DNA of 2,045 nucleotides from Naegleria gruberi. Taxonomy: Eukaryota. Numbering within the stretch: the first letter of the stretch is position 1; every line of letters starts with the position of its first letter. Below the pieces are notes generated by a model. The model made no database searches. It was not told the DNA's origin and saw nothing but the letters and a program-made list of their open reading frames with translations. The translations under genes were made by a program, and so were the position numbers. Below, in pieces: positions 1-2,045 of this stretch. The DNA lies in NCBI GenBank assembly GCA_000004985.1, contig GG739294.1. One strand, given 5' to 3'.

Positions 1-161
1 CATGATTTTATTCAATTTTCTAAAAATGAAATTTTAATTTCTTTAAATAATCAAAATTTAATTATTTTAAATTTAATTGATTATTTAAAATGATTTCATA
101 AATTGTTTAATTAAATAATAATAAAATATTAGTATTATATTTAAAATATTATTATTTAAAA

Positions 162-761
162 TTAATCCCAATCATCTTGATCTTGAATATTTGCAATATT
201 TTCCATTTTTCTATTTTTAAATCTATTATCATCATCATCATGTTCATAATAGGAAATATTTAAATTTGTATCCCAAACTTCAATAAAATGATCATTTCCA
301 GCAGAAAATAAAAATTGATTTTTTTCATCTAAACATAGACATTTAATTGAATCATAATGAATTTCTGATAAAGTTTTAATTTTTTTTCCATTAAATTTAT
401 CAAATAATTCAATTCTATTAAAAGAAGCATGAAATAAAATATCACCTTCTGATTCTTCAATTAAATGACATGATGTCTTGTTATTATTTATAATATTACA
501 ATTATATTGTGTATTTTTACCATTTGATACTATCCATTTCATTAATTTATTATCATTACTTGAACTATATATATATTGTCCACATTTGGAAAATTTAATA
601 CTATTTATAGATTGATTATGTGCTATTGGTACTTTAACATTGGAATAATTATATGATTTACTTGTTGAAAATCCAACTTGTTGTGTTTTTCTTTTTTCAA
701 TTCTATTTTTTACATTATTTATATTTGAATTATTATTATTTAAATTATTTAAATTATTATT
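162..761 (-). CDS. C-terminal portion of a WD40-repeat protein. It is partial and the 5' boundary is unresolved: the first ATG is at 540-542, but the frame stays open up to 761.
   Basis: The stop TAA is the reverse complement of 162-164. The listed 126-aa ORF contains a canonical WD blade ending (LFSAGNDHFIEVWD) and an acidic tail (HDDDD...QDDWD). By hand translation the same frame stays open for 73 more codons above the ATG (543-761). That stretch reads ...VKVPIAHNQSINSIKFSKCGQYIYSSSNDNKLMKWIV, which is itself a WD repeat (H-x..-F-S-x-G-x-Y-x-S-S-S-x-D-x-x-x-x-W). Coding therefore almost certainly extends upstream of M542. The in-frame stop (minus TGA) sits at 762-764, exactly where the AT-only run 705-761 ends, so the true 5' end is probably an intron acceptor. 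Minus AG candidates are at 704/703 and 692/691. Confidence 0.7.
   Translation of the reverse strand, partial: NNNLNNLNNNNSNINNVKNRIEKRKTQQVGFSTSKSYNYSNVKVPIAHNQSINSIKFSKCGQYIYSSSNDNKLMKWIVSNGKNTQYNCNIINNNKTSCHLIEESEGDILFHASFNRIELFDKFNGKKIKTLSEIHYDSIKCLCLDEKNQFLFSAGNDHFIEVWDTNLNISYYEHDDDDNRFKNRKMENIANIQDQDDWD
228..241 (-). repeat. (ATC)4 on the plus strand, which is (GAT)n on the minus strand and encodes the DDDD run in the acidic C-terminal tail of the WD40 protein.
   Basis: Plus 228-241 reads atcatcatcatcat. The minus frame gives HDDDDN. Confidence 0.85.
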
Positions 762-1013
762 TCATTCGTTTGTACTTGTTTGAACGCATGTGCTCCAAGG
801 CTTTGAAAACCACCATCACTCAACATATATTTAACCACCATCACTCTGCTCCCTGAATCACAGTACAGTGCGGTGAGGGCAGTAGTAATGATAATGATGA
901 GCACTTGGGAATCAACTATACATTAATCATGCATTTCAAAAAAAAAACATCACACCTCTCTGAGAGATCTAAAGAACTTCATCACACTAGAACATTTAAT
1001 AGATTCACACTCA
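762..1013. promoter_or_regulatory. An unusually G+C-richer, C/A-rich (plus strand) block between the 5' side of the minus WD40 ORF and the plus ORF at 1014. It is a candidate divergent promoter or regulatory region with CA-rich or G-box-like elements.
   Basis: By hand count 781-900 is roughly 40-47% G+C, against near-pure AT in the neighbouring spacers (1-161, 705-761, 1428-1603). The plus strand is C/A-rich with few G in 805-860. It holds a 14-bp perfect direct repeat and CATCAC at 814-819, 839-844, 949-954 and 980-985. TCACAC/ATCACA variants occur at 857-862 and 1005-1010. An A10 run lies at 938-947. No ORF is convincing on either strand; the segment TAGTAATGATAATGATGA at about 882-900 places stops in one plus frame repeatedly. 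Confidence 0.35.
808..846. repeat. Perfect 14-bp direct repeat AACCACCATCACTC at 808-821 and 833-846, separated by an 11-bp AT spacer (AACATATATTT). Copies are 25 bp apart start to start.
   Basis: Read directly from the sequence. On the minus strand each copy reads GAGTGATGGTGGTT, a GT-rich, G-box-like sequence. Confidence 0.85.
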
Positions 1014-1427
1014 ATGATGTTCAACAAGAAGACAATAACTAATCCAATTAATAATATTATTATAATGAGTATACTATTAACATTGTGTATTATAATATTA
1101 CCTAATAAGCATGTAATACATTGTAAAGTATTGTGTAACTATAATGGAGATTGTTCATTAAGATATTATTTATCTTCAATTGAAAATGAATATACTAAAT
1201 TATATTTATTACATTCTCAATTAGATAGTTATATTAATATTTTAAATGTAAAGAATGCAACTTTATATGAAACTGAAATTTTACAAAGGAGAAATCAATT
1301 AAAACAAATTAAAGAAAATCAAAGAACATTATTATTTGATATTCATTCATTAAAAAGAAAATGTTATTTGAATGATGGTGATAATTGTGATATTCCAATA
1401 ATATTACAAAAAATAGAAATTACATGA
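1014..1427 (+). CDS. Hypothetical small protein of 137 aa with an N-terminal hydrophobic signal peptide or signal anchor and six cysteines. It may be secreted or a type II membrane protein.
   Basis: This is a complete ORF from ATGATG to TGA. Codon usage is Dictyostelium-like (AAA, AAT, ATT, TTA, CAA, GAA, AGA, TGT) without collapsing into pure low complexity. A hydrophobic run IIIMSILLTLCIIIL follows a 16-residue polar N-region. Cysteine spacing is C-x3-C-x5-C and C-x7-C. A predicted helical, charged segment ETEILQRRNQLKQIKENQRTLLFDIHSLKRK follows. The start context (tcaATGATGt) is not the typical A-rich one, which lowers confidence. Confidence 0.5.
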   Translation: MMFNKKTITNPINNIIIMSILLTLCIIILPNKHVIHCKVLCNYNGDCSLRYYLSSIENEYTKLYLLHSQLDSYINILNVKNATLYETEILQRRNQLKQIKENQRTLLFDIHSLKRKCYLNDGDNCDIPIILQKIEIT

Positions 1428-1501
1428 AACTATTTATTAAGAATATTAAATGTAATATATATCTACTCATTAGAGTTTCAATACTCTATTATTATATATT
1501 T

Positions 1502-1515
1502 GGAAAGAAATTTCC
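1502..1515. promoter_or_regulatory. Short palindrome GGAAA-gaaa-TTTCC containing GAAnnTTC (a heat-shock-element-like core) about 90 bp upstream of the 1604 ATG.
   Basis: GGAAA (1502-1506) and TTTCC (1511-1515) are reverse complements. GAAatTTC lies at 1507-1514. It is the only G/C-containing island in an otherwise AT-only spacer. Confidence 0.25.
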
Positions 1516-1531
1516 GTTTTACTGTAAATTA

Positions 1532-1558
1532 CATCATTAAGCATCATTAAGGATTAAG
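1532..1558. repeat. Tandem direct repeat (CATCATTAAG)x2 followed by a partial third unit GATTAAG. It lies 45-70 bp upstream of the ATG at 1604 and is a candidate promoter element.
   Basis: 1532-1541 and 1542-1551 are identical 10-mers. ATTAAG occurs three times in 27 bp. Confidence 0.7.
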
Positions 1559-1567
1559 TTCTTTTGT

Positions 1568-1573
1568 AATAAA
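1568..1573 (+). other. AATAAA hexamer, a possible polyadenylation signal for the 1014-1427 gene, about 140 nt past its stop.
   Basis: The motif is present, but in DNA this AT-rich AATAAA arises by chance and it lies only about 30 nt before the next gene's ATG. A second candidate for the minus gene is plus TTTATT at 7-12. Confidence 0.2.
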
Positions 1574-1603
1574 TAACATTCAATTTCAATAATTTATAAA
1601 AAA

Positions 1604-2045
1604 ATGTCATTTCTCTATCTAGTACATAAATATTCTCAACCTCAAACAGCCTCATCATCACCTGTTGATGAATTAAAATCTCCGAGAATGTCTAATCAAC
1701 AACAACAACAACAAGATTTAAAATCACCAAAAGGAGGAGCCAATAATAATAATAGAAATAAACCAACATCACCCAATACAAAAACCAATAATTCTGAAAA
1801 GGAACATGAGCCTCCAAAACCCATTGAAGAAGTAATATTATTAAATTATGATATGGATAAAAGTATTGTATTATTAGATAAAATTAAGGAAATGTGTTGT
1901 TTTCAAGATGTTGAACATTTAGATTTAGTTAATTTTAAAACAGGTGAATGTGTAATGATACATTTAGATCCATTTGCTCCTGGTTCTAAATATTTAAAAA
2001 AAGGTGAAAAATATTTTCCATGTAAAGTAATAATACAAACAATAC
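1604..2045 (+). CDS. Hypothetical protein, 5' part only; the ORF runs off the window end. It has an S/N/Q-rich, probably disordered N-terminus with SP motifs, then a compact globular-looking domain.
   Basis: The ATG is at 1604-1606 in the classic aaaaaaATG context, with an in-frame TAA at 1574-1576 upstream. The frame is open for 147 codons to the window end. Hand translation gives MSFLYLVHKYSQPQTASSSPVDELKSPRMSNQQQQQQDLKSPKGGANNNNRNKPTSPNTKTNNSEKEHEPPKPIEEVILLNYDMDKSIVLLDKIKEMCCFQDVEHLDLVNFKTGECVMIHLDPFAPGSKYLKKGEKYFPCKVIIQTI. The in-frame (CAA)6 and (AAT)4 tracts are typical of Dictyostelium coding sequence. Confidence 0.65.
   Translation, partial: MSFLYLVHKYSQPQTASSSPVDELKSPRMSNQQQQQQDLKSPKGGANNNNRNKPTSPNTKTNNSEKEHEPPKPIEEVILLNYDMDKSIVLLDKIKEMCCFQDVEHLDLVNFKTGECVMIHLDPFAPGSKYLKKGEKYFPCKVIIQTI
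1697..1714 (+). repeat. (CAA)6 in-frame trinucleotide repeat encoding Q6. The nearby (AAT)4 at 1742-1753 encodes N4.
   Basis: Read directly. Its frame matches the ATG at 1604 because 1697-1604 is divisible by 3. Confidence 0.9.

What the first reader, a model, noticed from the sequence alone, without database searches (positions are those of the whole stretch)
762..1013. Compositionally anomalous CA-rich/GT-rich island with a perfect 14-bp direct repeat between two divergent genes
In a genome where non-coding DNA is almost pure AT, a ~250 bp non-coding block at roughly 40-47% G+C with strong strand asymmetry stands out. The plus strand is C/A-rich and the minus strand G/T-rich. It contains the 14-mer AACCACCATCACTC twice, 25 bp apart, a CATCAC core four times, and GTGTGATG and GGTGG motifs on the minus strand. 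In Dictyostelium, developmentally regulated promoters carry CA-rich elements and GT-rich G boxes bound by factors such as GBF. This could therefore be a shared divergent developmental promoter for the WD40 gene and the 1014 ORF. Alternatives are a small Pol II or Pol III ncRNA gene, or a fragment of a mobile element or foreign DNA inserted into the 5' part of the WD40 gene; see the separate gene-structure finding.
Basis: partly seen in the sequence, partly recalled or inferred. Interest (0 to 1): 0.55.

Follow-up and report, generated by a model that had tools for sequence, protein, structure and literature searches.

The report
GC-richer repeat block beside truncated gene
A 250-base stretch that is unusually rich in G and C and carries an exactly repeated 14-base word lies between two back-to-back reading frames of an AT-rich, Naegleria-like amoeba (not Dictyostelium). 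It is most likely their control and leader region, at the point where a DNA-repair gene lost its front two-thirds, and nothing ties it to a known RNA gene, mobile element or foreign DNA.

Summary
Window 762-1013 has 38% G+C (48% at its peak), against 6-18% for the other spacers. The 14-mer AACCACCATCACTC occurs twice (808, 833), which 0 of 5000 shuffles reproduce, and CATCAC occurs four times, also 0 of 5000.

The setting is wrong. The flanking genes identify an AT-rich heterolobosean amoeba (Naegleria/Willaertia-like), not Dictyostelium. The GBF/G-box reading therefore does not apply.

The "WD40 gene" is only the last ~175-190 codons of a CSA/ERCC8-like gene. Relatives carry that gene intact and without introns (470-522 aa) in the same neighbourhood. 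The island starts exactly where this homology and reading frame end, and an orphan ORF (1014-1427) follows it.

I found no Rfam family, tRNA, protein domain or similarity to any searched collection. The plus strand shows no significant fold. One minus-strand hairpin (834-895, -25.4 kcal/mol, z about -2.6 to -3) is the only structural signal.

The best reading, at about 0.4 confidence, is a lineage-specific divergent promoter/5'-leader block sitting on a rearrangement junction.

The rivals are:
- recent junction filler
- a minus-strand hairpin RNA
- a MITE-like element
- a C/D snoRNA (weak)

No orthologous copy or transcript data could be obtained. Interest is modest.

The parts
762..1013 (.). 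Compositional island (38% G+C) between the CSA-like remnant and ORF2
808..821 (+). 14-mer copy 1, AACCACCATCACTC. On the minus strand it reads GAGTGATGGTGGTT and contains ATG 816-814.
833..846 (+). 14-mer copy 2, identical to copy 1. It forms the 3' arm of the minus-strand hairpin and contains ATG 841-839 on the minus strand.
834..895 (-). Imperfect hairpin with 19 bp of main stem (12 + 7 bp, one bulge) plus a 3-bp apical helix, kept by G.U pairs on the minus strand only. dG is -25.4 kcal/mol. Its 5' arm (876-895) is a degenerate inverted copy of the 14-mer.
   Evidence: z -2.59 on minus, -0.42 on plus; z -2.96, 7th of 396 windows by z-score and the lowest free energy in the window.
776..943 (-). 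Rod-like core with nested short inverted repeats (776-784/935-943 and 787-795/899-907) around the hairpin
   Evidence: z -1.65 on minus, -0.17 on plus.
940..949 (+). A10 tract (T10 on the minus strand)
948..955 (+). CATCACAC, 66 nt upstream of the ORF2 ATG
980..987 (+). CATCACAC, 34 nt upstream of the ORF2 ATG
776..816 (-). Putative mini-exon (inferred only): ATG 816-814 plus 13 codons, MVVFKALEHMRSN(K)
   Evidence: the spliced model is in frame.
703..775 (-). Putative 73-nt GT..AG intron (inferred only), 11% G+C, overlapping the AT-rich tandem array 709-761
162..716 (-). C-terminal ~175 codons of a CSA/ERCC8-like WD40 gene. The open frame runs up to the TGA at 764-762.
   Evidence: 46% identity to residues 294-468 of P0005.
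1014..1427 (+). ORF2, an orphan of 137 codons. The frame is open from 925.

Best explanation
The island is a lineage-specific divergent regulatory and 5'-leader block in an AT-rich heterolobosean amoeba. It sits on the junction of a rearrangement that removed the first ~290 codons of the CSA/ERCC8-like gene.

Proposed mechanism, all of it inferred:
- The right part (about 905-1013) holds the A10 tract and two CATCACAC words at -66 and -34, on a C-rich, G-poor sense strand. It serves as promoter and 5' leader of ORF2.
- The left part (776-905) supplies the upstream module, and possibly a new 5' end for the CSA remnant. That 5' end would be ATG 816-814 inside 14-mer copy 1, joined through a 73-nt GT..AG segment to the conserved frame.
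- The identical 14-mers and the CATCAC cores act as repeated protein-binding or start-site words.

What is shown: the composition, the repeats, their non-randomness, the position relative to the two frames, the truncation of the CSA-like gene, and the absence of any known RNA, protein or mobile-element signature.
For: 1. Position.
- The block directly precedes the ATG of ORF2.
- ORF2's frame is open for 167 codons in 19% G+C DNA. By my own estimate from base composition, the chance of that is of order 1e-7.
- The block also starts at the TGA that closes the CSA-like frame. That frame has no in-frame ATG/GTG/TTG until 542.

2. Non-random words.
- The repeated words all share one orientation.
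- Only the 14 nt are identical. The flanks differ, so this is not a simple tandem duplication.

3. Composition.
- 911-1013 has 24 C and 7 G on the ORF2 sense strand.
- The 100 nt upstream of three genes on a Naegleria fowleri-like contig are likewise C-rich and G-poor on the sense strand (C 0.26-0.36, G 0.05-0.09). One of them ends ...CCACCACCATCAACACC|ATG.

4. Alternatives give no signal.
- No Rfam match better than E 0.64 and no tRNA.
- Fold z-scores for the whole island are +1.15 and -0.13.
- No Pfam domain in any frame.
- No match in plasmids, phages, IMG/VR, JGI metagenomes or GTDB genomes.

5. Retained G+C. The genome's other spacers have 6-18% G+C, so 38-48% implies either constraint or recent origin.

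6. Splice model. A canonical GT..AG segment of 11% G+C links ATG 816 in frame to the CSA remnant, giving a 193-aa product.
Against: - No transcript, TSS or orthologous sequence was available.
- The island shows no significant similarity to the CSA/gene-3 spacer of a relative with an intact gene, nor to the CSA upstream region of the N. fowleri-like contig.
- The only other promoter-containing spacer in the window (1428-1604) has just 18% G+C. G+C richness is therefore not a general promoter property here.
- In related loci, CATCA is no more frequent upstream of genes than genome-wide, at about 0.4 per 100 nt per strand.
- The left half has a strand-specific hairpin, which points to an RNA-level feature rather than a DNA-level one.
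- ORF2 has no homologue anywhere. Against a 98-99% identical strain it differs by 3 non-synonymous changes, 1 synonymous change and a 5-nt indel. Its status as an expressed gene is not secure.
Confidence: 0.4

Rival explanations
1. Neutral junction filler. The block is recently acquired DNA left by the rearrangement that truncated the CSA-like gene. It could be captured DNA or templated insertions made during end joining. It has no function and has not yet decayed to the genome's AT richness.
For: - The island begins exactly where CSA homology and frame end. Relatives have an intact, intronless gene in the same gene order.
- The remnant's frame is still open and 46% identical to P0005 over 175 aa, which fits a recent event.
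- Short direct and inverted copies lie close together, namely the two 14-mers and a degenerate inverted copy.
- There is a 26/32 match to window 324-355 inside the remnant, at P about 0.03.
- The block has no similarity to the spacers of relatives.
Against: - Two 14-mers stay perfect while their flanks are unrelated, and four CATCAC cores share one orientation. That looks more like kept words than like scrap.
- ORF2 next to the block has fully native composition (19% G+C), so it is not recent foreign DNA.
- No source sequence was found in any collection searched.
Confidence: 0.25
2. A structured RNA made from the minus strand. The 776-943 core folds as a long imperfect hairpin. It could be a small-RNA precursor, or a 5'-UTR element of the CSA remnant in which two identical AUG-containing 14-mers compete for one partner arm.
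For: - Hairpin 834-895 has dG -25.4 kcal/mol and makes up 51% of the ensemble. Its z-score is -2.59 on the minus strand against -0.42 on the plus strand, so pairing is kept by G.U pairs on one strand only.
- It has the lowest free energy in the window, with z -2.96.
- The 168-nt core has z -1.65 on the minus strand and -0.17 on the plus strand.
- From general knowledge, G+C-rich islands in AT-rich genomes often mark RNA genes.
Against: - By z-score the hairpin ranks only 7th of 396 windows, and it was picked after looking.
- The whole island is not better folded than shuffles.
- No Rfam family matches.
- No covariation test is possible because no homologue exists.
Confidence: 0.15
3. A miniature inverted-repeat element, or a fragment of another mobile element, inserted at the 5' side of the WD40 gene.
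For: The core has a rod-like, palindromic layout with short terminal inverted repeats at 776-784/935-943 and 787-795/899-907. Its composition differs from the surroundings.
Against: - The terminal repeats are only 9 nt long at 89% complementarity. No target-site duplication is visible.
- No second copy exists in the window or in the 1.8-kb contig from the related strain. No match exists in any collection searched.
- An insertion alone does not explain the missing ~290 codons.
Confidence: 0.1
4. A box C/D snoRNA on the plus strand, about 885-968, with box C AUGAUGA at 893-899 and box D CUGA at 960-963.
For: The two boxes lie in the right order, about 65 nt apart. There is a weak cmscan match to the plant family snoR79 at 879-932, at 20.3 bits and E 0.64.
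Against: - The score is far below the family's gathering score of 80, and the aligned segment lacks box D.
- There is no terminal stem and no recognisable D'/C' boxes. An A10 run sits in the body.
- The fold z-score is +0.75.
Confidence: 0.04
5. A Dictyostelium developmental promoter with CA-rich elements and GBF-bound G boxes.
For: GT-rich words (GTGTGATG twice, GGTGG twice) are present on the minus strand.
Against: - The organism is not a dictyostelid. Of the four hits to gene 3, the only named one is a Naegleria fowleri protein, and the other three are unnamed metagenome proteins.
- Gene order matches Naegleria-like contigs.
- No dictyostelid protein appeared among those four hits, and the other two protein searches returned no hits at all.
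Confidence: 0.01

Closest known systems
Divergent (bidirectional) promoters with clusters of one repeated binding word and a poly(dA:dT) tract
   Same: A short spacer between two frames that point away from each other. Several same-orientation copies of one core word (CATCAC), two of them within 70 nt of an ATG. An A10 tract.
   Different: No transcription start, factor or conservation is known here. One of the two 'genes' is a truncated remnant. The block is far richer in G+C than the other promoter-bearing spacer of the same window.
Dictyostelium CA-rich elements and G boxes bound by GBF
   Same: Superficial word content: a CA-rich strand opposite a GT-rich strand, with paired GTGTG-type words.
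   Different: The host is a heterolobosean amoeba, not a dictyostelid. No GBF-type factor is known there, to my knowledge. Membership fails on the host criterion.
G+C-rich islands that mark non-coding RNA genes in AT-rich genomes (the approach used for Dictyostelium, Plasmodium and AT-rich archaea)
   Same: An isolated G+C peak in a very AT-rich spacer, with one stable, strand-specific hairpin.
   Different: No family match, no overall folding signal, and no boxes with a closing stem. Nothing is available to test covariation.
Miniature inverted-repeat transposable elements (MITEs)
   Same: A ~170-nt rod-like imperfect palindrome with short terminal inverted repeats.
   Different: No target-site duplication, no other copy found, and the terminal repeats are very short.
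Templated insertions or filler DNA at end-joining junctions
   Same: The block lies exactly at a gene-truncating junction. It contains short direct and inverted copies of nearby words.
   Different: At 250 nt it is much longer than typical templated insertions. Its source is unknown. The perfect 14-mers with unrelated flanks could equally be selected words.

Membership tests
Dictyostelium GBF/G-box developmental promoter | The host is a dictyostelid that encodes GBF | tested here: not met
   The only named relative of gene 3 is a Naegleria fowleri protein at 50% identity. The gene order gene3-Ku is shared with Naegleria-like contigs. No dictyostelid protein appeared among the four hits to gene 3, and the other two protein searches returned no hits.
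Dictyostelium GBF/G-box developmental promoter | Two closely spaced G-rich GT half-sites | tested here: inconclusive
   GTGTGATG occurs twice on the minus strand, 32 nt apart (948-955 and 980-987). GGTGG occurs twice. No binding matrix was available.
Box C/D snoRNA | Box C (RUGAUGA) near the 5' end and box D (CUGA) near the 3' end | tested here: met
   AUGAUGA at 893-899 and CUGA at 960-963 on the plus strand.
Box C/D snoRNA | A terminal stem that brings boxes C and D together | tested here: not met
   The flanks 884-892 and 964-972 do not pair. The fold of 885-970 has z +0.75.
Box C/D snoRNA | A guide of at least 10 nt complementary to rRNA, ending next to box D or D' | not testable with these tools
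   No rRNA sequence of this organism or a close relative could be obtained.
Box C/D snoRNA | A match to a curated family model | tested here: not met
   The best match is snoR79 at 20.3 bits against a gathering score of 80, E 0.64.
tRNA / tRNA-derived element | A cloverleaf detectable by ARAGORN | tested here: not met
   0 genes found.
MITE / transposable element | Terminal inverted repeats | tested here: inconclusive
   9-nt arms at 89% complementarity at 776-784/935-943 and 787-795/899-907.
MITE / transposable element | Target-site duplication | tested here: not met
   No direct repeat flanks 776-943 (by inspection).
MITE / transposable element | Multiple copies in the genome | not testable with these tools
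   The genome of this organism is not in any searchable collection. There are no matches in JGI metagenomes, IMG/VR, GTDB genomes, plasmids or phages.
Hairpin small-RNA precursor | A stable hairpin, more stable than shuffled sequence | tested here: met
   834-895 on the minus strand has dG -25.4 kcal/mol and z -2.59 to -2.96. It ranks only 7th of 396 windows by z-score.
Hairpin small-RNA precursor | Mature small RNAs, or conservation with compensatory changes | not testable with these tools
   No reads and no homologous sequence were available.
Protein-coding exon of the CSA/ERCC8-like gene | Significant similarity to the missing part of the protein | tested here: not met
   A test of all three frames was not significant, with 196 of 500 shuffles reaching the score. 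Restricting to the CSA frame gave only P about 0.045 and includes three in-frame stops. No WD40 domain appears in any frame.
Promoter / 5' leader | Lies directly upstream of a reading frame with coding evidence | tested here: met
   ORF2's frame is open over 925-1427 in 19% G+C DNA.
Promoter / 5' leader | A mapped transcription start, or conserved words in orthologous spacers | tested here: inconclusive
   No transcript data exist. The spacers of the two relatives show no significant similarity. CATCA is not specifically enriched upstream of genes in related loci.

The most novel reading that the evidence does not exclude
The 776-943 core is transcribed from the minus strand as a ~170-nt hairpin RNA. 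It would be either a small-RNA precursor or a 5'-UTR switch. In the switch, two identical 14-mers, each carrying an AUG, compete for a single complementary arm and so decide which start codon of the truncated CSA transcript is exposed. To my knowledge, this would be the first structured regulatory RNA described in a heterolobosean amoeba.
Probability: 0.1. Interest if true: 0.55.

Novelty: new member of a known kind. Interest (0 to 1): 0.3.

Why it matters
Almost nothing has been published on promoters or small RNAs of Naegleria-type amoebae; a literature search returned nothing relevant. A clearly non-random, repeated word set next to two gene starts is therefore a usable handle for reporter or binding experiments.

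The side result may matter more. In this lineage the transcription-coupled-repair gene CSA/ERCC8 survives only as its last third. That third keeps an open and conserved frame and abuts this block. If the remnant is expressed from a start inside the block, it would be a natural example of a beta-propeller protein cut down to about three blades.

The case also shows that AT-richness with poly-N/poly-Q coding is not enough to call a sequence Dictyostelium.

Tried and rejected
1. ORF2 as an inverted copy of the missing CSA N-terminus.
- By eye, blade-like motifs seemed to line up.
- Shuffle tests were not significant: 110-137 of 500 shuffles and 57-272 of 400 reached the observed score.
- No WD40 domain was found. 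Rejected.

2. The island's minus-strand frames as the missing CSA blade.
- The three-frame test was not significant.
- A frame-restricted test gave only P about 0.045, with three in-frame stops. Kept only as a faint hint.

3. Orthology of the island with other spacers.
- Against the CA-repeat tract upstream of CSA in the N. fowleri-like contig, 317 of 1000 shuffles scored as well.
- Against the 221-nt CSA/gene-3 spacer of organism B, 810 and 374 of 1000 shuffles scored as well. Rejected.

4. CATCA as a general start-proximal word in heteroloboseans.
- It is enriched against shuffles.
- It is not enriched against its genome-wide frequency, and it is equally frequent in both orientations. Not supportive.

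5. The island as a duplicate of another part of the window. There is only a 26/32 match to 324-355, at P about 0.03.

6. A similarity to an intron of the N. fowleri-like dynamin gene, judged to be chance after reading the sequence.

7. Searches for more copies or orthologues, all empty or unrelated:
- two JGI metagenome scans (the four hits are unrelated)
- IMG/VR
- GTDB genomes
- plasmids and phages
- exact-product look-ups of four window ORFs
- protein searches with the WD40 remnant and ORF2

8. A retrocopy reading (element followed by A10). No target-site duplication is present, so it was not pursued.

Full report
**1. What is in the sequence**

The window is 22% G+C overall. Positions 762-1013 reach 38.1%, and the best 100-nt stretch (786-885) reaches 48%. 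The other spacers have 5.7% (92-161) and 18.1% (1428-1604). The coding parts have 19-28%.

The 14-mer AACCACCATCACTC lies at 808-821 and 833-846. None of 5000 dinucleotide-preserving shuffles of the island contained an exact repeat of 14 nt; the longest was 13 and the mean 7.7. Only the 14 nt are shared. The flanking 11 nt are unrelated, and Tandem Repeats Finder does not call a 25-nt period.

CATCAC occurs at 814, 839, 948 and 980, all on the plus strand. None of 5000 shuffles gave 4 or more copies. The whole window has 6 copies against 0.65 expected. CATCACAC occurs at 948 and 980.

The strand asymmetry is patchy. 801-860 is C-rich, 861-910 is G-rich on the plus strand, and 911-1013 is C-rich again. 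The observation therefore stands, with small corrections to the quoted G+C range and to the claim of uniform skew.

**2. The organism is not Dictyostelium**

- The partial gene at 1605-2045 belongs to Pfam PF15874. Its best matches are a 99% identical protein on a metagenome contig (L001), two further metagenome proteins, and an unnamed Naegleria fowleri protein at 50% identity. No dictyostelid protein appeared among those four hits.
- L001 is 98-99% identical to window 1100-2045. It continues into the C-terminus of a Ku protein that is 54% identical to the Ku gene next to the homologous gene on the N. fowleri-like contig L002.
- The same gene3-Ku order is seen on L003 and L010.
- Willaertia magna, the sister of Naegleria, has a 24.8% G+C genome (PMC6892926). 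That fits the window.

I therefore treat the source as an AT-rich heterolobosean amoeba, possibly Willaertia. The species assignment is an inference.

**3. The left-hand 'WD40 gene' is a remnant**

- The minus-strand frame 716-162 matches residues 294-468 of a 470-aa protein (P0005) at 46% identity. It also matches the end of a 522-aa protein (P0009).
- From my own knowledge of the family, both look like CSA/ERCC8. Both are encoded as single uninterrupted frames on their contigs.
- tblastn finds nothing in the window for residues 1-293 on either strand.
- The frame is closed by TGA at 764-762. It has no ATG/GTG/TTG until 542.
- In one relative ('organism B'), contigs L009 and L003 overlap by 17 nt. 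Joined, they show the intact gene diverging from the gene-3 homologue across a 221-nt spacer.
- In the N. fowleri-like contig a dynamin gene lies between the two.

This lineage has therefore lost about 290 N-terminal codons. The island and ORF2 occupy their place. The island begins exactly at the point of loss.

**4. The right-hand neighbour**

ORF2 (1014-1427) has no homologue among 5.8 billion proteins and no Pfam domain. Its frame is nevertheless open for 167 codons (925-1427) in 19% G+C DNA. By my own estimate from base composition that is very unlikely by chance. Against strain L001 it shows three non-synonymous changes, one synonymous change and a 5-nt indel before the stop. Constraint on it is therefore unproven.

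**5. Tests of what the island could be**

RNA gene:
- cmscan against Rfam 15 at E up to 10 gives only a 20-bit match to snoR79, whose gathering score is 80. ARAGORN finds nothing.
- The whole island folds no better than shuffles, with z +1.15 on the plus strand and -0.13 on the minus strand.
- A plus-strand C/D candidate has box C at 893-899 and box D at 960-963. It lacks a terminal stem.
- One feature stands out. On the minus strand, 834-895 forms an imperfect hairpin with 19 bp of main stem (12 + 7 bp, one bulge) plus a 3-bp apical helix, at -25.4 kcal/mol. It makes up 51% of the ensemble and has z -2.59. The plus strand reaches only -17.2 kcal/mol and z -0.42.
- The hairpin's 3' arm is 14-mer copy 2. 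Its 5' arm is a degenerate inverted copy whose differences are transitions that keep G.U pairs.
- In a scan of the whole window it has the lowest free energy but ranks only 7th of 396 windows by z-score.
- Short nested inverted repeats extend it to a 168-nt rod at 776-943, with z -1.65 on the minus strand and -0.17 on the plus strand.

Coding:
- No domain appears in any frame.
- There is no significant similarity to the missing CSA part. A frame-restricted test reaches only P about 0.045, with three in-frame stops.

Mobile or foreign DNA:
- There is no match in plasmids, phages, IMG/VR, JGI metagenomes or GTDB genomes.
- No target-site duplication is visible.
- The only internal duplicate is a weak 26/32 match to 324-355.

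**6. The promoter/leader reading**

The block is the only non-AT-saturated DNA upstream of ORF2. Its last 100 nt are C-rich and G-poor on the ORF2 sense strand. They contain an A10 tract and CATCACAC at -66 and -34.

On the N. fowleri-like contig, the 100 nt upstream of CSA, dynamin and the gene-3 homologue are similarly C-rich and G-poor on the sense strand. The dynamin leader ends ...CCACCACCATCAACACC before the ATG. That resemblance is compositional only:
- alignments to the spacers of relatives are not significant
- CATCA is not more frequent upstream of genes than elsewhere in those loci

On the other strand, ATG 816-814 lies inside 14-mer copy 1. A 73-nt GT..AG segment of 11% G+C (775-703) overlaps the AT-rich tandem array 709-761. 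It would join that ATG in frame to the CSA remnant and give a 193-aa product. This model is consistent but unverified.

**7. Verdict**

The most economical account is that the island is a lineage-specific divergent regulatory and 5'-leader block lying on a rearrangement junction (confidence about 0.4). A recent, functionless junction filler (0.25) explains two things equally well: the coincidence with the truncation, and the still-open remnant frame. A minus-strand hairpin RNA (0.15), a MITE-like element (0.1) and a C/D snoRNA (0.04) remain possible. The Dictyostelium GBF reading fails on the host.

No orthologous copy and no expression data could be obtained, so none of the functional statements is shown. 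The decisive data would be this amoeba's complete genome and its transcriptome.

Noticed in passing
window 1-2045; L001, L002, L003: The window comes from an AT-rich heterolobosean amoeba (Naegleria/Willaertia-like), not from Dictyostelium. The only named relative of gene 3 is a Naegleria fowleri protein, and the gene3-Ku order is shared with Naegleria-like contigs.
   Followed up: yes
window 162-764 (minus strand): The CSA/ERCC8-like WD40 gene keeps only its last ~175-190 codons, yet the frame is open and 46% identical to an intact relative. The first ~290 codons are nowhere in the window. Relatives have an intact, intronless 470-522 aa gene in the same neighbourhood.
   Followed up: yes
window 703-816 (minus strand): ATG 816-814, a GT..AG segment of 73 nt (11% G+C) and the CSA remnant are mutually in frame. 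Together they would give a 193-aa truncated propeller protein. A second ATG (841-839), in the other 14-mer copy, opens a 30-codon overlapping frame.
   Followed up: partly
window 1014-1427: ORF2 is an orphan with a hydrophobic N-terminus followed by a probable coiled coil. It has no homologue in 5.8 billion proteins and no Pfam domain. Against the 98-99% identical contig L001 it differs by 3 non-synonymous changes, 1 synonymous change and a 5-nt indel that changes the C-terminal tail.
   Followed up: partly
window 1532-1551: A perfect tandem CATCATTAAG x2 lies 55-73 nt upstream of the gene-3 ATG and is kept in strain L001. The word ACTGTAAAT..CATCA also precedes the homologous gene in organism B, but the match is not statistically significant.
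   Followed up: partly
window 709-761: An AT-rich tandem array (unit ATTATTTAA, also periods 15 and 24) abuts the island. In the CSA frame it reads as an Asn/Leu-rich run that has no counterpart in relatives.
   Followed up: no
window 21-110: The strongest fold z-scores of the whole window (to -4.7, on both strands) are AT-rich palindromes where two genes converge. They could be a shared 3'-end element or just AT-rich symmetry.
   Followed up: no
L009 1-65 with L003 1-173 (also L010, L011): Contigs from two independent assemblies all break inside the CSA/gene-3 spacer of 'organism B'. A 17-nt overlap rebuilds a 221-nt divergent spacer that contains TTTCGCGC, an E2F-like word.
   Followed up: partly
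L002 6480-6600: The N. fowleri-like contig carries a ~100-nt (CACCAC/CAACAC)n tract on the CSA sense strand, 110-230 nt upstream of the CSA start. It resembles the window's 14-mer in word content, but the similarity is not significant.
   Followed up: yes
window 978-1008 vs 324-355: A 26/32 direct match links the right end of the island to a stretch inside the CSA remnant, at P about 0.03 by shuffling. It could be chance or a templated copy.
   Followed up: no
window 1697-1714 vs L001: The CAA (Gln) run in gene 3 differs by one unit between the two strains.
   Followed up: no
window 929-1042 (plus strand): A 37-codon upstream frame (ATG 929) overlaps the ORF2 start in another frame. It would act as a uORF if ORF2 transcripts start upstream of 929.
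   Followed up: no
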